64,000 bases of DNA. It comes from an uncultured Acidimicrobiales bacterium (GTDB lineage: Bacteria; Actinomycetota; Acidimicrobiia; Acidimicrobiales; DATKAS01). Under the pieces are notes generated by a model. That model was given only the letters and a program-made list of their open reading frames with translations. It was not told the origin of the DNA and made no database searches. Positions 53,727-62,901 of this stretch are shown here, one piece after another. Location: positions 135,581 through 199,580 of the forward strand of contig CAVUAV010000012.1 of assembly GCA_963739555.1 (NCBI GenBank), in the 5' to 3' direction. A program made the position numbers and the translations under genes. Numbering within the stretch: the first letter of the stretch is position 1; each line of letters begins with the position of its first letter.

Positions 53727-54317
53727 GTGGATGCAGCGAAGGCAGACCTCCATCACTACCTCCAGGTCGGGCGGGAGGCGCTCGTCTGGAAGCTCGAAGG
53801 CCTGTCCGAGTACGACATCCGTCGGCCGATGACTCCCACGGGCACGAACTTGTTGGGACTCGTCAAGCACGCGGCAGGGGTTGAGCTCGGCTACTTCGGC
53901 GAGGTGTTTGGACGGCCCATTGACGAACCGTGGCCGTGGTTCGACGAAGGCGCCGATCCCAACGCCGACATGTGGGCGACTCCGGAGGAGTCGCGAGACG
54001 ACATCGTCGCCCTGTACCGGCGGACGTGGACCCATGCTGACGCCACCATCGACGCGCTGCCGCTCGACGCGCTCGGCTCGGTCGCCTGGTGGCCGGAGGA
54101 GAGGCGCGAAGTCACGCTGCACCTGATCCTGGTGCACGTCATCGCCGACATCGACCGCCACGCGGGGCACGCCGACATCATCCGCGAGCTGATCGACGGC
54201 GCGGTCGGCCTGAGGGCCGACAGCAGCAACCTTCCGCCGGCCGAGCAGGAGTGGTGGGCCAGCTATCGCGACCAGCTCGAGCATGCCGCGGAGGAGGCAC
54301 ACCGTCTGTGGAGCTAA
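53727..54317 (+). CDS. DinB/DUF664 family protein (mycothiol-transferase-like)
   Basis: 'LVWKLEGLSEYDIRRPMTPTGTNLLGLVKHAAGVELGYFGEVFG' and 'HLILVHVIADIDRHAGHADIIRELIDG' (His triad region) are present. The only in-frame start is GTG 53727. Confidence 0.8.
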   Translation: MDAAKADLHHYLQVGREALVWKLEGLSEYDIRRPMTPTGTNLLGLVKHAAGVELGYFGEVFGRPIDEPWPWFDEGADPNADMWATPEESRDDIVALYRRTWTHADATIDALPLDALGSVAWWPEERREVTLHLILVHVIADIDRHAGHADIIRELIDGAVGLRADSSNLPPAEQEWWASYRDQLEHAAEEAHRLWS

Positions 54318-54688
54318 CGGTGTCTTCGACACCGGGAACTGCGTGCAGGCGGTGCGGTATGGGGTGCCGGTGCCGAAGTATTTCGTCCACCGGCGATGTC
54401 GGGCGCAAAGTCGTCTCGGTGCGGTCCCTTGGGGGCGAGCTCGACAGTGACTCGATCGCCAGGCCGGACGCCACAGCCCCGCCGCCACGCGGCCCGAGCA
54501 GACTGCCGTGGCCGTCGTGTAACGGCTCGACGACGGCGCGCGCTGCTCAACAGCAAGGTCGCAGGTCGCTCGCGAGCGCCACGGCCGGAGTTACCCCTTG
54601 TCTCCGAACAACGGGTGACGAGTCCATCACGCGAGACCGGCGGTGAGGGCCAAACGTCCGGCTGCTCGTAGCACGAGCCCGGCCAGTC

Positions 54689-55681
54689 TCAGCGTGGCGA
54701 GCGGATGCCTCCCCGCAGTCCGTCGTCGACGCTGGTGAACCGGTGAGCGGCGAGCCACAGGCGCAGCAGATGGCGGCGCTGGGCGGGGTCGTCCTCGTCT
54801 TCGTAGGCCTCGCGTGAGTGCAGGATCTTGCCGTTGTTGAGCAGCTGCACGTCGCCAGGCGCGAAGTCCATCTCGAGGTGAAACGTCCGGTCATTGGCGA
54901 TCGACTCGAGCAGCTCCATCGCCTCACACTGCTCGCCCGTGAGGCGAGGCACGTCCGGATGGCGTTGCGCGTCCCGGATGTACCAGCCGATATAGAAGAC
55001 TCGCGGTGTGCCGTTGAGGTCGCTGATCGGCGCCAGCTCGAACCACGGCTGTCCGCCCGCAGCATCGTCGCCTTGGCGGTCCCAGTACATCGGGCGGTAG
55101 AGGACGTCGACGAGGTCTGGGCGTCGGCGCAGCATCTCGTTGTAGACGGCGCCAGAGCTGACGATCCTGCTCTCCCCGCCCGACTTGGCGCTGTGCAGGC
55201 ACAGCAGGCCGATGATGTCGGCGCCATCCGTGTGGAAGTCCTGCCGCTCGCGGGTTCGATAGAGCCGCACCTGCGGTCCGCTTTCGGGGAGCCGCTCATC
55301 GCGGATGTGCGTGAGCAGCTCGCCGGCTGCGTTCTGGGTAACCGGTTGCCCGAGGTGCAACCCCAGGCCGACGTAGGCGAGCTCGATTTCGTCGTCGGCC
55401 AATAGGTCGATCGGGAACCGACGGAGCAGCACGAAGCCACGGCCGTCACTGAGCATCCTCGACCACTCGGTGATCGCGTCTTCCATCGTCGACAGCGAGA
55501 ACTCGGCGAGCGCCAACGTGCTCGGCGCGATCCCGGCCGAACGGGCGGCCCGAGCTGCCGTCGCGATTTCGTCACGTTGCTCGTTCGTCAGCGCGATCGA
55601 CCAATCCGTCGGCGAGAGATCGCTCGAGCGCCACACCGCTGGTGGCACCTGCCGTTTACGGGCGGGGAGATCGGTTGTCAC
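54689..55681 (-). CDS. TauD/TfdA-family Fe(II)/2-oxoglutarate-dependent dioxygenase
   Basis: An intact 330-aa ORF. 'QDFHTDGADIIGLLCL' carries the HxD of the facial triad. 'GDVQLLNNGKILHSREAY' carries the distal His, and 'RHLLRLWL' carries the 2OG-binding Arg. Confidence 0.85.
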   Translation of the reverse strand: MTTDLPARKRQVPPAVWRSSDLSPTDWSIALTNEQRDEIATAARAARSAGIAPSTLALAEFSLSTMEDAITEWSRMLSDGRGFVLLRRFPIDLLADDEIELAYVGLGLHLGQPVTQNAAGELLTHIRDERLPESGPQVRLYRTRERQDFHTDGADIIGLLCLHSAKSGGESRIVSSGAVYNEMLRRRPDLVDVLYRPMYWDRQGDDAAGGQPWFELAPISDLNGTPRVFYIGWYIRDAQRHPDVPRLTGEQCEAMELLESIANDRTFHLEMDFAPGDVQLLNNGKILHSREAYEDEDDPAQRRHLLRLWLAAHRFTSVDDGLRGGIRSPR

Positions 55682-55731
55682 GAGCCGTCAACAGCAGCCG
55701 CTGCTGTGAGGACGAGTTGGACACGAGACAT
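55678..55731 (-). pseudogene. 17-codon remnant of an ArsI/CadI-family gene 5' end (MSRVQLVLTAAAAVDGS*). Its stop overlaps the TauD GTG start.
   Basis: The first 7 codons, the GGAGG RBS and ~15 nt upstream resemble the start of the intact arsI/cadI at 57204. The TGA (55678-55680) overlaps GTG (55679-55681) of the dioxygenase. Confidence 0.6.
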
Positions 55732-55752
55732 GGGATGCCTCCGGAGCGATTG
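55708..55752. repeat. Copy A of the arsI/cadI 5' region (partner 57181..57223)
   Basis: Copy A is GAGGACGAGTTGGACACGAGACATGGGATGCCTCCGGAGCGATTG. Copy B is GAGAGCGAGTTGGACACGGGACACGGGAACCTCCGATAGATTG. By-eye identity is roughly 80 percent, with one 2-nt indel. Confidence 0.75.
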
Positions 55753-55986
55753 CACGTCACATTAAGGTCCACTCGCCGCAGGTCTTCCTTCTGACTACTC
55801 GCGGTTCGAATCGGTACCCAACGCCTCGAATTGTCGTGATCGGCGGGGGGGGAGGTCGCTGTCGCGGCCGTTCGTCGCGACTGGGTTCCTCGGGGCCTTG
55901 CACGACCCATTCGACGTTCGCCGGTCGAGACTGACCTGTTTCGCCAAGAGCGGCGCGGTTGAATCTCAGAAGCAGGCGATACGGCG

Positions 55987-56649
55987 TCAGGCGACAGGCA
56001 CGTCGAGGCTGGCCAGCAGAGCCCGCACCCGTTGTTCGATCTCGTCGCGGATCGGGCGCACCGTGTCGATGTCTTGTCCCGCGGGGTCGTCGAGGTCCCA
56101 GTCCTCGTAGCGCTTGCCGGGGAAGAGGGGGCAGGCGTCGCCGCAGCCCATGGTGATGACCACGTCGGCGGCGCGGACGATCTCATCGGTCCAGGGCTTG
56201 GGAAACTCCTGCGCGATGTCGATGCCGACCTCGGCCATGGCCATGACCGCGGACGGGTTGACTTCCTTGCCGGGCTCGGACCCGCCCGACCAGGCGACCG
56301 CTCGCCCCCCGGCGAGATGGTTGAACCAGCCGAGGGCCATCTGCGAGCGGCCGGCGTTATGCACGCAGAGGAACAGCACGGTTGGCAGACCGTCGCGCGT
56401 GAGGCCTTCGATCTTGGCCAGTGCCTTGAGTCGTTGCCGGGCGAAGCGTTCGGCCATGAGCGGAAGGAACGTGACGATCGTGGCGTTGGTGGCGAACTGC
56501 TCGTAGCTGGTGGCGAGGAACTGCTCGATGGTCTCGATGGAGAACACCCCGTCGAAGTCGCGCTGCAGGTTGACCGCTGCCGAGCGGAGCGAGCGTTGCT
56601 GTTCGATGGTCAGGTCCTGAAGGGAGGGCATGCTGGGTCTCCTTTTCAA
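55987..56649 (-). CDS. arsC: Arsenate reductase (LMW-PTPase type) with an N-terminal ~90-aa helical extension
   Basis: 'VLFLCVHNAGRSQMA' is the CX5R P-loop, and 'VITMGCGDACP' and 'DWDLDDPAG' are also present. Confidence 0.88.
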   Translation of the reverse strand: MKRRPSMPSLQDLTIEQQRSLRSAAVNLQRDFDGVFSIETIEQFLATSYEQFATNATIVTFLPLMAERFARQRLKALAKIEGLTRDGLPTVLFLCVHNAGRSQMALGWFNHLAGGRAVAWSGGSEPGKEVNPSAVMAMAEVGIDIAQEFPKPWTDEIVRAADVVITMGCGDACPLFPGKRYEDWDLDDPAGQDIDTVRPIRDEIEQRVRALLASLDVPVA

Positions 56650-56754
56650 GGTGGCTACGGCGCGTGATCTTGAGCCGCGTCACCGTCGCGGTCTATTTCG
56701 ACGGCCCGTCGACAGGGCATGGTCGATATCGACGCATGGCAAACGCCCACCAGG

Positions 56755-57204
56755 TCAGCAGCAGCGGGCTTCGGCTTCGGGGACTGACGCGCAGCACAGC
56801 GAGTCGCCCTGGTCGTCGACATGTGTCGAGGACACGCCGAAGCTGTCGCTGTCCTCGATAACTGTGTAGATCTCCCACGCGCCGTCGGGCCCGTCGACCC
56901 AGACCTTGTCCTGCTTGGCGAAGCAACAGGTGCCGTTCTCCTCGATCGGCGTCAGCCCTTCACTAGTGAGCCGGGCCTGCGCGGCGGCGACGTCGTCGGT
57001 GGAGAACACCTCGACGCCGAGGTGGTTCAGCCGACTGTCCGCGCTCGTGTTCTCGAACAGGACCAACTTGAGCGGCGGATCGGCGATGGCGAAGTTGGCG
57101 TAGCCGGGCTTGCGCTTGTGGGGTTCTGCCGCGAACAGCTTGGAGTAGAAGGCGACGGCGGCGTCGATGTCGGGGACGTTGAGAGCGAGTTGGACACGGG
57201 ACAC
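56755..57204 (-). CDS. ArsI/CadI family heavy-metal/organoarsenical resistance metalloenzyme (VOC/glyoxalase fold)
   Basis: 'MSRVQLALNVPDIDAAVAFYSKLFAAEPHKRKPGYANFAIADPPLKLVLFEN...LNHLGVEV...NGTCCFAKQDKVWV' includes the vicinal Cys pair. The Cys-rich C-terminal tail is 'LCCASVPEAEARCC'. Confidence 0.88.
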   Translation of the reverse strand: MSRVQLALNVPDIDAAVAFYSKLFAAEPHKRKPGYANFAIADPPLKLVLFENTSADSRLNHLGVEVFSTDDVAAAQARLTSEGLTPIEENGTCCFAKQDKVWVDGPDGAWEIYTVIEDSDSFGVSSTHVDDQGDSLCCASVPEAEARCC

Positions 57205-57272
57205 GGGAACCTCCGATAGATTGACCGTTGTCTATACCTTAGCAACAGATCGACGCGTGTCAATACGTTACT
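57205..57272. promoter_or_regulatory. Divergent arsI/arsR promoter-operator region
   Basis: A 68-bp stretch, visibly AT-richer, lies between divergent starts. It has a GGAGG RBS for arsI and short inverted repeats: ATAGA(57216-57220)/TCTAT(57231-57235) and TTGAC(57221-57225)/GTCAA(57259-57263). No operator consensus could be verified. Confidence 0.4.
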
Positions 57273-57623
57273 GTGAGGATGACGATGACTGCCAGCAGGA
57301 CCCGGATCGCAGTGACCGACGTCGAGTGCTGCTCGGTGCTCGAGGCGCCGATCGACCCCCGTCAAGCGGGTGAGCTCGCGCACGCGTTCGCGGCGCTCGC
57401 GGATCCGGTGCGGCTGCGACTGTTCAGCCTCATCGCCGCCGCCGGCAGTGCATGCTCGTGTGACTTGATCGAGCCGATCGGCAAGAGCCAGCCCACCGTC
57501 AGCCACCACACCAAGGTGCTGGCCGACGCCGGGCTGATCACCGGGGAGAAGTCCGGCCGGTGGGTGAACTGGTCGGTTGTCCCGGAGCGGGTGGCTCAGG
57601 TCCGCGCCGCGCTCGCGCCGTAG
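57273..57623 (+). CDS. arsR: ArsR/SmtB family metalloregulator
   Basis: 'ALADPVRLRLFSLIAAAGSACSCDLIEPIGKSQPTVSHHTKVLADAGLI' is the HTH with a CxC metal site, and the N-terminal Cys pair is 'VECCS'. Alternative ATG starts lie at 57279 and 57285. Confidence 0.88.
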   Translation: MRMTMTASRTRIAVTDVECCSVLEAPIDPRQAGELAHAFAALADPVRLRLFSLIAAAGSACSCDLIEPIGKSQPTVSHHTKVLADAGLITGEKSGRWVNWSVVPERVAQVRAALAP

Positions 57624-59591: not shown

Positions 59592-60059
59592 GCCCACCGT
59601 GCCGTGAGACCGCCACCCGATCGTCCGGCAACGCCTCGTGAGCAGAGGCCGAACGTGCAACCGCTGCGCAGCAACGATTTCGTCCGCGACCGCGGTCGCT
59701 AGTTCGTTGCTGTGGTGCTGACAGCGGGCCGTTGAGACCAGGGGTCGTGACGCGCGCGCATCGGCAGCAGGTCTACCCGGCCCGGGGGCTGTGGTGAGGA
59801 CCCTCGAGCTTCGCGATGTCGGCAAGCACCGCGTGAAGTTGGCGCGAGACCGCGGCAACGGCGTAGGGCGGCGCGTCCTCGACATGTCGCGGCGAGCGCG
59901 GCGAGCTGATCGAGTTCCGGATCCGTTCCGGTGGCTGCGGCTGCGATGCCGCGGCGACCACCGATTGACGGTGTGACAGGACCTTGGCCTCTGCCTGCGA
60001 TCGAACGACCGCTCTACGGTCATGTCGACGCACTTCCGATGCCCAGTCAGGAGGTGTCG

Positions 60060-60827
60060 ATGACCGAGACATCTGATGGGAGAACGGCGGAGCACACTGC
60101 GGTACGCGAGCAAGTGCGGGAGCGTTACGCCGCTGCCGCCCAAGCGGTCGACGCGGGTACTGGCGCGTGCTGCGATTCCGGTCCGCTGCCAGTCGCGTTC
60201 GGCCCCGGCTTGTACGGCGACGCCGAGCGGGACGAGTTGCCGCCGGCGGCGGTGGCTGCCAGCCTCGGGTGCGGCAATCCGTTGGTGGTCGCGGAGCTGG
60301 CCGAGGGTGAGACGGTTCTTGATCTCGGGTCCGGCGGCGGGATCGACGTGATCCTCTCGGCTCGGCGGGTTGGTGGGAGCGGCAAGGCCTACGGCCTGGA
60401 CATGACTGATGAGATGCTCGACCTCGCGCACCGCAACGCGGCCGAGGCGGCTGTCGACAACGTCGAGTTCCTCAAGGGCGACATGGAAGCAGTTCCGCTA
60501 CCCGACGCCAGCGTTGACGTCGTGATCTCCAACTGCGTGATCAATCTGTCGGTCGACAAGCCCGCTGTGTTCGCGGAGATGTTCCGCGTTCTGCGCCCGG
60601 GCGGTCGCGTCGGGGTGAGTGATGTCGTGGCCGAGGATCGGCTCAGCGCGCCCGAGCGCGCCGAGCGAGGCGATCATGCGGGCTGCATCGCCGGCGCGCT
60701 GTCGGTGTCGGAGTACCAAGCGGGGCTCATCGCCGTGGGCTTCGGCGACGTGTCCGTCAAGTTCACCCACGAGGTCGCCGATGGCTTGCACGGCGCCATC
60801 GTCCGGGCGACGAAACCGGTCGAGTAG
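60060..60827 (+). CDS. arsM: Arsenite S-adenosylmethionine methyltransferase
   Basis: 'VREQVRERYAAAA...ACCDSG' is the N-terminal Cys pair. 'ASLGCGNPLVVAEL..GETVLDLGSGGGIDV' is the SAM motif. 'VDVVISNCVINLS' and 'HAGCIAGA' (conserved Cys) are also present. Confidence 0.9.
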   Translation: MTETSDGRTAEHTAVREQVRERYAAAAQAVDAGTGACCDSGPLPVAFGPGLYGDAERDELPPAAVAASLGCGNPLVVAELAEGETVLDLGSGGGIDVILSARRVGGSGKAYGLDMTDEMLDLAHRNAAEAAVDNVEFLKGDMEAVPLPDASVDVVISNCVINLSVDKPAVFAEMFRVLRPGGRVGVSDVVAEDRLSAPERAERGDHAGCIAGALSVSEYQAGLIAVGFGDVSVKFTHEVADGLHGAIVRATKPVE

Positions 60828-60831
60828 AGGG

Positions 60832-62612
60832 TCAGGCCGACTCGCGTGGCCGAGCGGTGCGGCTGAGTTGCCTTCGGCGAGCACCGGGTCGAACGGTGCG
60901 ACCCACACCTTGCGGGCGAGCTCGGTGCCGACGCGTCGGAGCTGGGGCACTTCCAGGCGAGCCCGGGCTCGCAGGACGGGATCGGTGGTGCCGCTGCCGG
61001 CGAGGACGGCGTTGAGGACCCAGCCGAACGGCTCGATCCCTGCGCGGCGCAGATCGGCTTGGAGTTCCGCGGCTTCGGCTACGGGAGTCGTTTCGGCGAG
61101 CGCGACCAGTACGACCCGACAGAAGCTCGCGTCTTGCAGGCGCATCAGCGGGGTGGTGATGCGTCCGGGTGCGGTGGTGGCGTCGTGCATCACTTGGCGG
61201 TGGAACGCCCCGGTGACGTCGAGCAAGAGCAGTGTGTGCCCGGTCGGCGCGGTGTCGATGACGACGTGTTGGGTGCGGCCGAGGCCGAGGAGACGGCTGA
61301 ACGCGCGGAACACGGCCACCTCGGTTGTGCACGGCGAGTGCACCTCCTCGAACGTCAAGGCGCGCTCGTCGGGAGTCGAGGCGCGGGGCTGCTCGGCGGC
61401 GTAGCGCTCGGTCTCGGCCTGCGGATCGATGCGGCTGACCGCGACGCTCTCGGGCAGTTCGACCCCACCGGGTGCGGGCAAGCGTCCGGCGGGATCGGTG
61501 GTCGCCAGGTGGACCGGTAGCCCACGACGGGCGAGCCCGGCGGCGATGCGTACGGCGATGCTCGTCTTGCCGACGCCACCCTTGCCGGTCACGAGCGTGA
61601 CGCCCGGCCCGGCGCCGGCGATGTCATCGATCAAACCTTCGACGTCATCGAAGGTCGGAGCCGGAAGTTGTGTGCCGTCGGTGTCAACGTGCGCGGCGAG
61701 TTCGCCACGGGCCAGGCTGCGCAGCGCGTCGACCCCCACCAGATCGACACCGACGAGGGGTACGAGCGATGCAGGCCGCCCGGCCAGCGTCACGGGGAGG
61801 TGAGCGAGCGAGTGCTCCTGGCAGCGGGCGTAGGACTCGGCGATCGCGTCACCGTCGCGCGGGTCGGTGAGCACTCCGTTGATCACAAGGCGCTGGTTCG
61901 TGAGGCCGAGGACCGCGAGCTCCGATCCGGCGCGATCGGCCTCGGCGAGGGCGGTGCGGTCAGGACGGGCGACGAGCACCAGCGTTGTCGCATCTCGGTC
62001 GGCGAGCACGGCGACGGCCCGCTCGTAGGTGGGGCGTTGACCCTGAAGACCGGCGAGCGGGCCGAGGCACGTGCTCTCCTCCGGGTTGACGGCGAGATAG
62101 CGCGACCACGCGGCCGGCAACGCCAGCAGGCGCAGGGTGTGACCGGTGGGAGCGGTGTCGAACACCACATGGTCGTACTGCCCGGTCGCCGCAGGATCGG
62201 CCAGTAGCCGCGTAAACGCGTCGAACGCGGCGACCTCGACGGTGCACGCACCGGCGAGCTGTTCCCCCAACGCCACCAACTCCGACGGCGCGAGCGTGCC
62301 GCGATGGGGGGCGATGACGCGCTCCCGGTACTGGTCGGCGGCGGTCTGCGGATCGAGGTCCATCAGATCCAGGCCCGCCACGCCCGGAGCCGGAGCGGGT
62401 TCCTCCCCGGTCACGGTCCGGAACACGTCCGCGAGGTTCGACGCCGGGTCGGTGCTGACCAGCAGCACCCGCCGGCCCGCGTCCGCGAGCGCGACTGCGA
62501 CACCGCTGGCGACTGTCGTCTTGCCGACGCCTCCTTTGCCGGTGAACAGCACGAACCGGGTCTTCCAGCTGGCCCAGTCGAGCGGGCCGAGGCGGGGGAC
62601 CGAGTCGTTCAT
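60832..62612 (-). CDS. arsA: Arsenite-transporting ATPase ArsA (two-domain). The 3' end is uncertain, with a possible frameshift near 60870.
   Basis: There are two P-loops ('FTGKGGVGKTTVAS', 'VTGKGGVGKTSIAV') and two signature sequences ('DTAPTGHTLRLL', 'DTAPTGHTLLLL'). The formal ORF runs on to 60498, antisense through arsM. A shifted frame gives a TGA at 60832-60834, 4 nt from the arsM stop. Confidence 0.85.
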
Positions 62613-62658: not shown

Positions 62659-62901
62659 TCAGGAAGCCCTCGTATGGTCCTGCGCGCGGCCGACGACAGC
62701 ATCGTGTGCGGCGGCGCACGTCTCGCAGTAGATCAATCGAGCGGGCGGCTCGACGTTCACGCGCAGGTCGAGCAGCTCGACACGGGTCAGATGATGCGGA
62801 AACACGACGGCATGGTCGAGGCACAGGCCGGCGCCGCAGTCGACGCAAGTGGCGACCGCGAGATGTCGGTTACCGTTGAAGGCGCAGTCATAGCAGTTCA
62901 T
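62659..62901 (-). CDS. DUF2180-like Cys-rich small protein (80 aa)
   Basis: 'MNCYDCAFNGNRHLAVATCVDCGAGLCLDHAV...IYCETCAAAH' contains three CxxC pairs plus one extra Cys. The ATG forms an ATGA overlap with the ACR3 stop. Confidence 0.7.
   Translation of the reverse strand: MNCYDCAFNGNRHLAVATCVDCGAGLCLDHAVVFPHHLTRVELLDLRVNVEPPARLIYCETCAAAHDAVVGRAQDHTRAS

What the first reader, a model, noticed from the sequence alone, without database searches (positions are those of the whole stretch)
54689..55752. TauD/TfdA-family dioxygenase sits behind a second copy of the arsI/cadI ribosome-binding site and first codons
**Seen in sequence**
- Directly upstream of the dioxygenase GTG (55681) there is a 17-codon ORF, MSRVQLVLTAAAAVDGS*.
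- Its first seven codons, its GGAGG RBS and about 15 nt of leader resemble the 5' end of the intact ArsI/CadI gene at 57204 (MSRVQLALNV...).
- The two DNA segments, 55708-55752 and 57181-57223, align at roughly 80 percent identity by eye.
- The mini-ORF stop overlaps the dioxygenase start (GTGA). This is the geometry of translational coupling.
- The dioxygenase is the last gene of the minus-strand series arsI, arsC, dioxygenase, which is divergent from arsR.

**Inference**
- Either a second arsI/cadI paralog was truncated by recombination, or the dioxygenase was recruited under an arsenic-responsive leader.
- As far as I know, TauD-family enzymes are not among the named ars functions. ArsI itself is an Fe(II) dioxygenase that cleaves C-As bonds.
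- An arsenic-regulated 2OG dioxygenase acting on organoarsenicals, or on an arsenic-stress metabolite, would therefore be new.
Basis: partly seen in the sequence, partly recalled or inferred. Interest (0 to 1): 0.7.

Follow-up and report, generated by a model that had tools for sequence, protein, structure and literature searches.

The report
arsI remnant before ars-linked dioxygenase
The 17-codon ORF is what is left of a deleted arsI gene that normally sits directly in front of this TauD-family dioxygenase, and the dioxygenase belongs to an uncharacterised clade found inside arsenic-resistance operons in about three quarters of the related species examined, so it is a candidate new arsenic gene.

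Summary
The mini-ORF (55731-55678, minus strand) and its leader match the 5' end of arsI far beyond chance.

It is a gene remnant, not a recruited regulatory leader:
- It keeps about 32 nt of arsI 5'UTR with GGAGG, then 8 codons.
- Out of frame, it also keeps the arsI end (Cys-Cys-stop) and a 6-nt spacer before the dioxygenase GTG.
- The arsI promoter and ArsR operator are missing.
- Its best match is the arsI of the closest arsI-dioxygenase locus elsewhere, not the window's own arsI.

In 80 species-level loci the dioxygenase follows arsI in 34, arsC in 10 and arsR in 8. It has ars genes close by in 7 more. TauD::ArsC fusion proteins exist.

In 28 of 32 arsI-dioxygenase junctions the gap is -4 to +7 nt. 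The dioxygenase has a Shine-Dalgarno-like motif in only 3 of 32, against 30 of 32 for arsI. Translational coupling is therefore the family norm, and the remnant probably preserves it.

The enzyme keeps the HxD...H iron motif. Its nearest solved relatives are the hydroxylases TtnM and FrbJ. No curated family and no paper in the held library links it to arsenic.

Its substrate is unknown. My working hypothesis is oxidative C-As cleavage of pentavalent organoarsenicals, feeding ArsI and ACR3.

The parts
57273..57623 (+). arsR. ArsR/SmtB repressor transcribed divergently from arsI. It carries an ECC motif and a CSCDL motif.
   Evidence: PF01022 and NF033788 hits. The cysteine motifs were read from the translation. 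That they bind As(III) is prior knowledge, not tested here.
57220..57264 (-). Promoter and putative ArsR operator of the intact arsI. It is an imperfect palindrome, ATTGACACGCGTCGAT...ATAGACAACGGTCAAT, and its left arm contains a TTGACA -35.
   Evidence: Read from the sequence. The same architecture lies upstream of arsI in most of about 40 related loci. ArsR binding is inferred.
56755..57204 (-). Intact arsI (ArsI/CadI C-As lyase family), 149 aa, with the vicinal Cys pair (GTCCF) and a Cys-Cys C-terminus.
   Evidence: NF041414 scores 187.5 bits against a cutoff of 116. E 2e-40 to the 5C4P/5D4F group of solved glyoxalase-superfamily structures; I recall these as Thermomonospora curvata ArsI, which the depositors' names do not state.
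55987..56631 (-). arsC. Low-molecular-weight phosphatase-type arsenate reductase with an N-terminal three-helix domain.
   Evidence: PF01451 plus PF21234. Arsenate reductase models match below their cutoffs.
55764..55986 (-). Spacer between arsC and the arsI remnant. Its origin is unknown.
   Evidence: blastn and tblastx against 86 loci match only L001/L007. No terminator-like or promoter-like site lies in it. No Rfam match. Its arsC-proximal part diverges more than the rest between the window and L001, 21 differences in 128 columns.
55732..55763 (-). Remnant of the arsI 5'UTR, with GGAGG at 55742-55738. The promoter and operator are absent.
   Evidence: blastn gives 86% identity over 57 nt (55763-55707) to the arsI leader and first codons of L002/L008, E 6e-11.
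55678..55731 (-). 17-codon mini-ORF. It consists of arsI codons 1-8 (55731-55708), the deletion junction (about 55707-55702), then read-through in a shifted frame to the TGA that overlaps the dioxygenase GTG.
   Evidence: An orphan MSRVQL start occurs only in the window and in L001/L007 among 86 loci.
55682..55701 (-). Remnant of the arsI 3' end, in the +2 frame of the mini-ORF. It reads ...Gly-Cys-Cys-stop (TGC TGT TGA, 55696-55688) followed by the 6-nt spacer CGGCTC (55687-55682).
   Evidence: Three-frame translation. The 12-mer GGCTGCTGYTGA occurs once in the window, 0.01 expected. 24 of the 34 listed arsI-dioxygenase junctions in relatives end in CC-stop. In 28 of 32 scored junctions the dioxygenase start lies -4 to +7 nt from the arsI stop.
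54689..55681 (-). TauD/TfdA-family Fe(II)/2-oxoglutarate dioxygenase, 330 aa. It has the H150-x-D152...H288 motif and an Arg-rich segment, RLYRTRERQDFHTD. No Shine-Dalgarno motif precedes its GTG.
   Evidence: PF02668 scores 115 bits against a cutoff of 27. Invariant columns are listed. Solved relatives are TtnM and FrbJ. Against L001 there are 15 synonymous and 10 non-synonymous codon differences.

Best explanation
**What is shown**
- In the relatives of this dioxygenase the common layout is an arsR gene divergent from an operon reading arsI, TauD-like dioxygenase, and often acr3.
- In those operons the arsI stop lies within a few bases of the dioxygenase start, and the dioxygenase has no ribosome-binding site of its own.
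- The 17-codon ORF in the window is the remnant of such an arsI. It keeps the 5'UTR with GGAGG, the first 8 codons, the last Cys-Cys-stop codons and the 6-nt spacer.
- The deletion shifted the frame. The short ORF therefore reads past the old stop and ends on the TGA that overlaps the dioxygenase GTG.
- The remnant has no arsI promoter and no ArsR operator.
- An intact arsI-arsC pair with a different evolutionary history now lies upstream, under arsR.

**What is inferred**
- The deletion removed roughly 410 nt of the ancestral arsI.
- Ribosomes that load at the remnant's GGAGG and ATG terminate at the dioxygenase start and re-initiate there. The remnant would thus keep the translational coupling on which this dioxygenase family depends.
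- Transcription comes from the ArsR-controlled arsI promoter by read-through across arsC.

**What is hypothesis**
- The enzyme is a hydroxylase of an uncharacterised, ars-embedded clade.
- I propose that it hydroxylates a carbon bound to arsenic in a pentavalent organoarsenical such as methylarsonate or dimethylarsinate.
- The hydroxyalkyl adduct would collapse to an aldehyde plus a trivalent arsenical. ArsI would then cleave MAs(III), and ACR3 or an aquaglyceroporin would export As(III).
For: **The ORF is an arsI remnant**
- The similarity to arsI scores 43, against 16.8 +/- 2.3 in shuffles.
- The match to the arsI leader and first codons of L002/L008 is stronger: score 71, 86% over 57 nt, E 6e-11. 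L008 carries the closest dioxygenase outside the window's own lineage (77% identity).
- A Cys-Cys-stop plus 6-nt spacer lies in the +2 frame directly before the GTG. This is the junction form seen in relatives.
- An orphan MSRVQL start is found only in the window and its 97%-identical relative.
- The operator and promoter are absent from the remnant.
- In a neighbour-joining tree the window and L007 nest inside the arsI-dioxygenase clade, sister to L008.

**The two arsI copies have different histories**
- The intact arsI is 75-83% identical to the ArsI of loci whose dioxygenase is only 60-64% identical to the window's.
- L008's ArsI is only 50% identical to the intact arsI.

**Translational coupling**
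- The gap is -4 to +7 nt in 28 of 32 junctions.
- A Shine-Dalgarno-like motif precedes 3 of 32 dioxygenase starts against 30 of 32 arsI starts.
- The window's dioxygenase has none, while the mini-ORF has GGAGG.

**Linkage to ars genes**
- 59 of 78 loci with usable upstream sequence have ars genes adjacent or within 5 kb: 34 arsI, 10 arsC, 8 arsR, 2 arsM, 5 nearby.
- At least 10 species have acr3 directly downstream on the same strand.
- Other layouts read arsI, MIP channel, (disulfide reductase), arsC, dioxygenase.
- TauD::ArsC fusions occur on contigs from two sources.
- One ArsN2-like::TauD fusion was found.

**The enzyme looks intact**
- PF02668 scores 115 bits, and H150, D152 and H288 are invariant.
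- It differs from L001 by 15 synonymous and 10 non-synonymous codons, a ratio similar to arsI and arsC.
- The nearest solved relatives are hydroxylases, one of which acts on a phosphonate.
Against: **Expression**
- No expression data exist.
- The 305-nt gap after arsC could hold a terminator or a promoter that the simple scans miss in G+C-rich DNA.

**No evidence of selection on the remnant**
- The remnant differs from L001 at 4 of 96 positions.
- That equals the third-codon-position rate of 4.6% in the neighbouring genes, so its conservation shows nothing beyond neutral expectation.

**3' remnant**
- It is short (about 14 nt). Pairwise alignment scores of 17-22 are not significant by themselves. 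The case rests on its exact position and on the rarity of the motif.

**Substrate hypothesis**
- It has no direct support.
- The closest solved relative, TtnM, acts on a polyketide rather than an oxyanion substrate.
- 19 of 78 loci show no ars gene, including the close relatives L009 and L010 at 70-73% identity.
- Some operons pair the dioxygenase with arsM. A demethylase there would run a futile cycle.
- Converting mildly toxic pentavalent species into toxic trivalent ones is not an obvious benefit.
Confidence: 0.7

Rival explanations
1. The dioxygenase was placed behind a copied arsenic-responsive leader (promoter, operator and ribosome-binding site of arsI) to bring it under ArsR control. 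The shared first codons are a side effect of that copy.
For: The leader, GGAGG and first codons do resemble arsI.
Against: - The copied stretch starts after the promoter and operator. Only a degenerate end of the right half-site remains.
- The arsI stop region is also present, out of frame.
- Relatives already carry arsI directly upstream of the dioxygenase.
- The remnant matches that partner arsI better than the window's own arsI.
Confidence: 0.04
2. The dioxygenase is arsenic-regulated but does not act on an arsenical. It would handle a stress-related metabolite instead, for example by releasing sulfite from a sulfonate to support thiol (mycothiol) synthesis, or by modifying another small molecule during arsenic stress.
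For: - TauD-family enzymes classically act in sulfur scavenging (prior knowledge).
- A mycothiol S-transferase gene lies convergent to the dioxygenase.
- Disulfide reductases occur in some of these operons.
- The enzyme has no cysteine pair for binding trivalent arsenic; only C161 is invariant, and it is shared with TtnM and FrbJ.
Against: - The protein is not close to taurine or alkylsulfate dioxygenases. No such NCBIfam or PDB match appears, and the nearest relatives are TtnM and FrbJ.
- Its tight, coupled position between arsI and acr3, and its fusion to ArsC, fit a step in arsenical processing better.
Confidence: 0.2
3. The dioxygenase inactivates an arsenic-containing antibiotic such as arsinothricin, or a related arsonate or arsinate natural product, by hydroxylation. 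It would be a resistance enzyme comparable in purpose to ArsN.
For: - One fusion joins an ArsN2-like acetyltransferase to the dioxygenase.
- One of the two nearest solved relatives, FrbJ, hydroxylates a phosphonate antibiotic. The entry title says 'phosphonate hydroxylase'; the substrate is from my own knowledge.
Against: - The ArsN2-like match is below the curated cutoff (92 bits against 125).
- The fusion is seen on a single 1.8-kb contig.
- Nothing else points to this substrate.
Confidence: 0.08
4. After losing its arsI partner, the window's dioxygenase is silent and on its way to decay. The mini-ORF would be debris without a function.
For: - The remnant diverges at the neutral rate.
- The gap to arsC is long (305 nt), and the native promoter is gone.
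- In the sister genome an IS21-type element lies directly downstream.
Against: - The ORF is intact and every invariant residue is retained.
- Substitutions against L001 are biased towards synonymous changes, 15 synonymous against 10 non-synonymous codons, a ratio like that of arsI and arsC.
- GGAGG, the ATG, the open frame and the stop overlap are kept in both genomes.
Confidence: 0.1

Closest known systems
ArsI C-As lyase operons (arsR-arsI, as described for Bacillus sp. MD1 and Thermomonospora curvata)
   Same: - The window has an intact arsI with the vicinal Cys pair, under a divergent arsR.
- The remnant derives from a second arsI.
- Both ArsI and the new enzyme are Fe(II)-dependent oxygenases encoded in ars operons.
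   Different: - ArsI has a glyoxalase (VOC) fold, needs no 2-oxoglutarate and acts on trivalent organoarsenicals.
- The dioxygenase has a TauD-type fold that uses 2-oxoglutarate and has no cysteine pair.
- The 2018 survey of ars genes does not mention such an enzyme.
TtnM (PDB 7N7V, tautomycetin pathway hydroxylase) and FrbJ (PDB 5EQN, phosphonate hydroxylase)
   Same: - They are the closest solved relatives: phmmer E 8.5e-42 and 1.9e-37, Foldseek E about 1e-21, TM-score 0.68-0.84.
- They share the HxD...H motif and the R-x-Y-x-T segment before it.
   Different: - Identity in the structural alignment is only 24-29%.
- Both are secondary-metabolite tailoring enzymes, not resistance-operon genes.
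- The RTRERQD and GWYIRD motifs are specific to the ars-linked clade.
TauD, AtsK, TmpA and PhnY-type dioxygenases, which hydroxylate a carbon next to a sulfonate, sulfate or phosphonate group
   Same: - Same Pfam family.
- Weak C-terminal matches to TmpA, BBOX and TMLD.
- They supply the chemical analogy behind the proposed mechanism (prior knowledge).
   Different: - Scores are far below the family cutoffs (34.7 bits against 400 for TmpA).
- No arsenical substrate is known for any of them.
Translationally coupled gene pairs with overlapping or abutting stop and start codons (ATGA and TGATG type)
   Same: - The stop-to-start gap is -4 to +7 nt.
- The downstream gene lacks a Shine-Dalgarno motif.
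   Different: In the window the upstream partner has been reduced to a 17-codon remnant.

Membership tests
TauD/TfdA family (Pfam PF02668), Fe(II)/2-oxoglutarate dioxygenases | Profile match above the curated threshold | tested here: met
   115 bits against a cutoff of 27, covering residues 60-309.
TauD/TfdA family (Pfam PF02668), Fe(II)/2-oxoglutarate dioxygenases | 2-His-1-carboxylate iron motif (HxD...H) | tested here: met
   H150, D152 and H288 are invariant in 15 homologs. They align with FHxD and LH in TtnM and FrbJ.
TauD/TfdA family (Pfam PF02668), Fe(II)/2-oxoglutarate dioxygenases | Jelly-roll fold matching solved family members | tested here: met
   AF2 model with pLDDT 76.9 and pTM 0.79. 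Foldseek E 7e-22 to 5EQN and 1e-21 to 7N7V. The lid region 116-146 is modelled poorly.
TauD/TfdA family (Pfam PF02668), Fe(II)/2-oxoglutarate dioxygenases | 2-oxoglutarate- and O2-dependent catalysis | not testable with these tools
   Needs an enzyme assay.
Named TauD-family equivalogs (TmpA, gamma-butyrobetaine dioxygenase, trimethyllysine dioxygenase) | Score above the NCBIfam equivalog cutoff | tested here: not met
   34.7, 30.4 and 28.7 bits against cutoffs of 400, 415 and 268. Only the C-terminal part matches.
ArsI/CadI family (NF041414), tested for the mini-ORF | Full-length VOC domain with metal ligands and the Cys pair | tested here: not met
   Only 8 N-terminal codons and, out of frame, the last few codons remain. 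The intact gene at 56755-57204 does meet the test, with 187.5 bits against a cutoff of 116.
ars operon component | Conserved co-location and co-orientation with established ars genes across species | tested here: met
   59 of 78 species-level loci. Fusion to ArsC.
ars operon component | Arsenic-inducible expression under ArsR, and a resistance or transformation phenotype | not testable with these tools
   Needs transcript measurements and genetics.
Translationally coupled gene pair | Stop and start codons overlapping or within a few nt, with no independent Shine-Dalgarno motif for the downstream gene | tested here: met
   The window has a GTGA overlap and no Shine-Dalgarno-like motif in the 18 nt before the GTG. 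The same pattern holds across the family. Actual re-initiation was not tested.

The most novel reading that the evidence does not exclude
The ars-embedded TauD-family clade is the missing oxygen-dependent enzyme that breaks C-As bonds in pentavalent organoarsenicals, for example DMAs(V) to MAs(III) plus formaldehyde, or MAs(V) to As(III) plus formaldehyde. It would work in tandem with its translationally coupled partner ArsI and with ACR3. That would give aerobic Actinomycetota a complete demethylation and export pathway that needs no separate reductase for organoarsenicals.
Probability: 0.22. Interest if true: 0.85.

Novelty: new variant of a known kind. Interest (0 to 1): 0.62.

Why it matters
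**Open question in arsenic cycling.** ArsI is the only characterised C-As bond-cleaving enzyme, and it acts on trivalent substrates. A 2023 paper states that the mechanism of DMAs demethylation 'remains unclear' (PMC10579292).

**A candidate that can be tested.**
- A second oxygenase is conserved, translationally coupled to arsI, often followed by acr3 and sometimes fused to ArsC.
- Cultured carriers are available for experiments: Aquihabitans daechungensis DSM 27986 and several Nocardia, including N. seriolae NBRC 15557.
- If the enzyme acts on arsenicals, it adds a step to the arsenic cycle in soils and fresh waters, where Acidimicrobiia are common.

**The remnant as an example.** It shows how a gene that relies on its upstream neighbour for translation can survive that neighbour's deletion, provided the neighbour's start and stop signals remain.

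Tried and rejected
- **Literature.** Nine searches and four papers read. No paper in the held library links a TauD/TfdA enzyme to ars operons. Searches for 7N7V and FrbJ found nothing usable. Subscription-only literature was not covered.
- **A wrong recollection.** I first recalled 7N7V as a phosphonate-pathway enzyme. The Foldseek table shows it is TtnM from the tautomycetin pathway. I therefore weakened the argument that the relatives act on phosphonates.
- **Selection on the remnant.** The remnant looked better conserved than the distal spacer (Fisher p = 0.005). However, its divergence equals the third-codon-position rate, so there is no evidence of constraint.
- **Origin of the arsC-to-remnant spacer.** blastn and tblastx against all loci found nothing outside the sister genome. 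I found no arsR remnant there.
- **Promoter, terminator and Rfam scans of 54400-57400.** None was informative.
- **Neighbours in loci without ars genes (L009, L062).** A phosphotransferase, a WS/DGAT and an aminotransferase; none gives a functional hint.
- **Other multidomain relatives.** Fusions to an ECF sigma factor, DUF952 and a signal peptidase belong to more distant family members and look unrelated or like gene-call artefacts.
- **Leader-peptide or attenuator reading of the mini-ORF.** Rejected, because it is confined to one lineage and is explained by arsI decay.
Full report
**1.

On the minus strand, ATG 55731 opens a 17-codon ORF, MSRVQLVLTAAAAVDGS*. Its TGA (55680-55678) overlaps the GTG at 55681 of a 330-aa ORF, 54689-55681.

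A local alignment pairs 55752-55707 with 57223-57180, the leader and first codons of the ArsI/CadI gene. It has 37 identities in 46 columns and scores 43. A thousand shuffles gave 16.8 +/- 2.3, maximum 30. No other place in the window scores above 26.

Family searches confirm the surrounding genes:
- arsR, 57273-57623, plus strand
- arsI, 56755-57204, minus strand; NF041414, 187.5 bits against a cutoff of 116
- arsC, 55987-56631, minus strand; low-molecular-weight phosphatase type
- the TauD-family protein; PF02668, 115 bits
- further along, a quinone reductase-like gene, arsM, arsA and acr3

The intact ArsI matches the 5C4P/5D4F group of solved glyoxalase-superfamily structures at E 2e-40 and starts with the same MSRVQLAL. 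I recall those entries as Thermomonospora curvata ArsI; the depositors' molecule names do not say so.

**2. What the mini-ORF is**

Homologs of the dioxygenase are abundant, with more than 6000 hits, mostly from Acidimicrobiia and other Actinomycetota genomes assembled from metagenomes. Their neighbourhoods explain the mini-ORF.
- In L002/L008 (dioxygenase 77% identical) the layout is arsR divergent from arsI, then the dioxygenase, with 6 nt between the arsI stop and the dioxygenase ATG.
- In L005 the layout is arsR divergent from arsI, then a dioxygenase::ArsC fusion, then acr3.

The window's remnant matches the arsI leader and first codons of L002/L008 better than it matches the window's own arsI. 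The scores are 71 against 43, with 86% identity over 57 nt (55763-55707) and E 6e-11.

The 3' end of the lost gene is also present. In the +2 frame of the mini-ORF the sequence reads ...Ser-Ser-Gly-Cys-Cys-stop (TGC TGT TGA at 55696-55688). The spacer CGGCTC and the GTG follow.

In relatives, 24 of the 34 listed arsI-dioxygenase junctions end in Cys-Cys-stop, and the dioxygenase start follows within a few bases. L015, for example, reads TGCTGCTGA-GCGCGGG-GTGACCACCGAT, against the window's TGCTGTTGA-CGGCTC-GTGACAACCGAT.

The 12-mer GGCTGCTGYTGA occurs once in the window, with 0.01 expected.

The ORF is therefore an arsI from which the interior, roughly 410 nt, was deleted with a change of frame. 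The junction lies at about 55707-55702.

An orphan MSRVQL-type start occurs only in the window and in L001/L007 among 86 loci. L001/L007 is a 97%-identical genome with the same layout. The event is therefore lineage-specific and not an assembly artefact.

**3. It is not a recruited regulatory leader**

Upstream of arsI, most of about 40 loci share one design. A palindrome of the form ATTGACAnnnnTCGAT ... ATCGAnnnnGTCAAT has its left arm over a TTGACA -35 and its right arm near the start of the leader.

The window's intact arsI has this design at 57264-57220. The remnant begins only at the last bases of the right arm, reading CTTAAT where L008 has GTCAAT. It has no -35, no -10 and no left arm.

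The 223-nt spacer between arsC and the remnant matches nothing except the sister genome. It shows no terminator-like or promoter-like site and no Rfam family.

Transcription of the dioxygenase from the ArsR-controlled arsI promoter by read-through is thus an inference.

**4. Two arsI genes with different histories**

The intact ArsI is 75-83% identical to the ArsI of L027, L032, L033, L037, L039 and L049, whose dioxygenases are only 60-64% identical to the window's. L008, with the closest dioxygenase, has an ArsI only 50% identical to the intact one.

In a neighbour-joining tree of the dioxygenases, the window and L007 nest inside a large clade with arsI directly upstream, and they are sister to L008.

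The ancestral state for this dioxygenase is therefore arsI followed by the dioxygenase. The present arsI-arsC pair came from elsewhere. I could not reconstruct the exact rearrangement.

**5. Coupling is the family norm**

In 32 arsI-dioxygenase junctions the gap between the arsI stop and the nearest in-frame dioxygenase start is -4 to +7 nt in 28 cases. Four of those have the same 4-nt overlap as the window.

A Shine-Dalgarno-like tetramer or longer motif precedes 3 of 32 dioxygenase starts, against 30 of 32 arsI starts. In the window the dioxygenase has no such motif, the mini-ORF has GGAGG, and arsI has GGAGGT.

The dioxygenase thus appears to depend on ribosomes delivered by arsI. A deletion that kept arsI's ribosome-binding site, its start codon and a stop next to the dioxygenase start would keep the dioxygenase translated.

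This is an inference. The remnant differs from L001 at 4 of 96 positions, which equals the third-codon-position rate of 4.6%. The two genomes are therefore too close to show selection. Both genomes do keep GGAGG, the ATG, the open frame and the stop overlap.

**6. The dioxygenase clade is embedded in ars operons**

A scan of one genome per GTDB species returned 80 loci. I located ArsI, ArsR, ArsC, ArsM, ArsA and ACR3 in them by tblastn.

| Gene context of the dioxygenase | Loci |
|---|---|
| arsI directly upstream | 34 |
| arsC directly upstream | 10 |
| arsR directly upstream | 8 |
| arsM adjacent | 2 |
| ars genes within 5 kb | 5 |
| no ars gene found | 19 |
| too little upstream sequence | 2 |

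- At least ten species have acr3 directly downstream on the same strand.
- In loci with arsC upstream, the operon reads arsI, MIP channel, sometimes a disulfide reductase, arsC, then the dioxygenase.
- Loci without ars genes form several separate subclades, for example a Rhodococcus group and L009/L010. This pattern suggests repeated loss of linkage.
- TauD::ArsC fusions (P0113, P0114) occur on contigs from two data sources.
- One ArsN2-like::TauD fusion sits on a single short contig, and its ArsN2 score is below the cutoff.

**7. What the enzyme is**

- H150, D152 and H288 and many arginines are invariant. So is the clade motif RLYRTRERQDFHTD.
- The only invariant cysteine, C161, is shared with TtnM and FrbJ, so it is not an arsenic-binding feature.
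- The AF2 model has moderate confidence (pLDDT 76.9), with a poorly modelled lid at residues 116-146.
- The closest solved structures are FrbJ ('phosphonate hydroxylase', 5EQN) and TtnM (tautomycetin hydroxylase, 7N7V), at 24-29% identity.
- NCBIfam offers only weak sub-threshold matches to TmpA, BBOX and TMLD.
- Database names are generic: 'TauD/TfdA family dioxygenase' or 'hypothetical protein'.
- Against L001 the gene shows 15 synonymous and 10 non-synonymous codon differences, a ratio like those of arsI (9 and 5) and arsC (7 and 8). It is therefore not decaying.

**8. Proposed mechanism (hypothesis)**

TauD and AtsK hydroxylate the carbon next to a sulfur oxyanion, and the product then falls apart. 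This is established chemistry, cited from my own knowledge.

By analogy, hydroxylation of a carbon bound to pentavalent arsenic would give a hydroxyalkyl arsenical. That product should release an aldehyde and a trivalent arsenical. DMAs(V) would yield MAs(III), which is the ArsI substrate. MAs(V) would yield As(III), which is the ACR3 substrate.

This fits several observations:
- the gene order arsI, dioxygenase, acr3
- the coupling to arsI
- the absence of a cysteine pair in the dioxygenase
- the aerobic hosts

It would also address a stated gap, since DMAs demethylation 'remains unclear' (PMC10579292).

Points against it:
- The closest relative acts on a polyketide.
- Some operons pair the enzyme with arsM.
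- A quarter of the loci lack ars genes.
- Nothing here tests the substrate.

I put this specific mechanism at roughly 0.2-0.3. The arsI-remnant reading and the ars linkage are near 0.9.

**9. Novelty**

The remnant by itself is ordinary gene decay, though it has a neat functional rationale.

I did not find the conserved ars-embedded TauD-family clade in the 2018 survey of ars genes, in a 2025 review, in curated family libraries or in the full-text searches. Papers in subscription journals were not searched.

I rate it a new variant of a known kind: an ars operon with an added 2-oxoglutarate dioxygenase.

Noticed in passing
L005 8001-9371 (also L006; proteins P0113, P0114): A single 456-aa protein fuses the TauD-family dioxygenase to a low-molecular-weight phosphatase-type ArsC. 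It sits between arsI and acr3, and the acr3 start overlaps its stop.
   Followed up: partly
L087 239-1627 (protein P0122): A 462-aa protein has an ArsN2-like acetyltransferase N-terminus (92 bits, below the cutoff of 125) fused to the dioxygenase. It is seen on only one 1.8-kb contig and could be a gene-call artefact.
   Followed up: partly
window 57220-57264, and upstream of arsI in about 40 loci (for example L005 7415-7475): A conserved long palindrome, ATTGACAnnnnTCGAT...ATCGAnnnnGTCAAT, overlaps the -35 of the arsI promoter. It is presumably the ArsR operator of this actinobacterial arsR-arsI family.
   Followed up: partly
L001 9095-11397: In the 97%-identical sister genome an IS21-type element (a Mu-transposase-like gene plus an IstB-like gene called together with a methyltransferase) lies directly downstream of the dioxygenase. 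In the window the dioxygenase is followed instead, in convergent orientation, by a mycothiol S-transferase (DinB-fold) gene ending at 54317.
   Followed up: no
window 60498-60890 against 59931-60827: The arsA ORF (734 aa) runs about 130 codons past the end of its ArsA family match. It overlaps the 3' part of the convergent arsM by about 330 nt. This could be a real tail, a frameshift or a sequencing error.
   Followed up: no
window about 62659-62900 (minus strand): A small Cys-rich ORF with a DUF2180-like zinc-ribbon motif (E 2.8e-7) lies between acr3 and arsA, at a position where arsD might be expected.
   Followed up: no
window 55860-55986 against L001 7665-7790: The arsC-proximal part of the spacer differs from the sister genome at 21 of 128 columns, with several indels. 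That is about 3.5 times the third-codon-position rate of the flanking genes (4.6%).
   Followed up: partly
L059 3970-6196; L047 5735-6974: In loci where arsC precedes the dioxygenase, the operon carries an aquaglyceroporin (MIP). In L059 it also carries a pyridine-nucleotide disulfide oxidoreductase. These replace acr3.
   Followed up: partly
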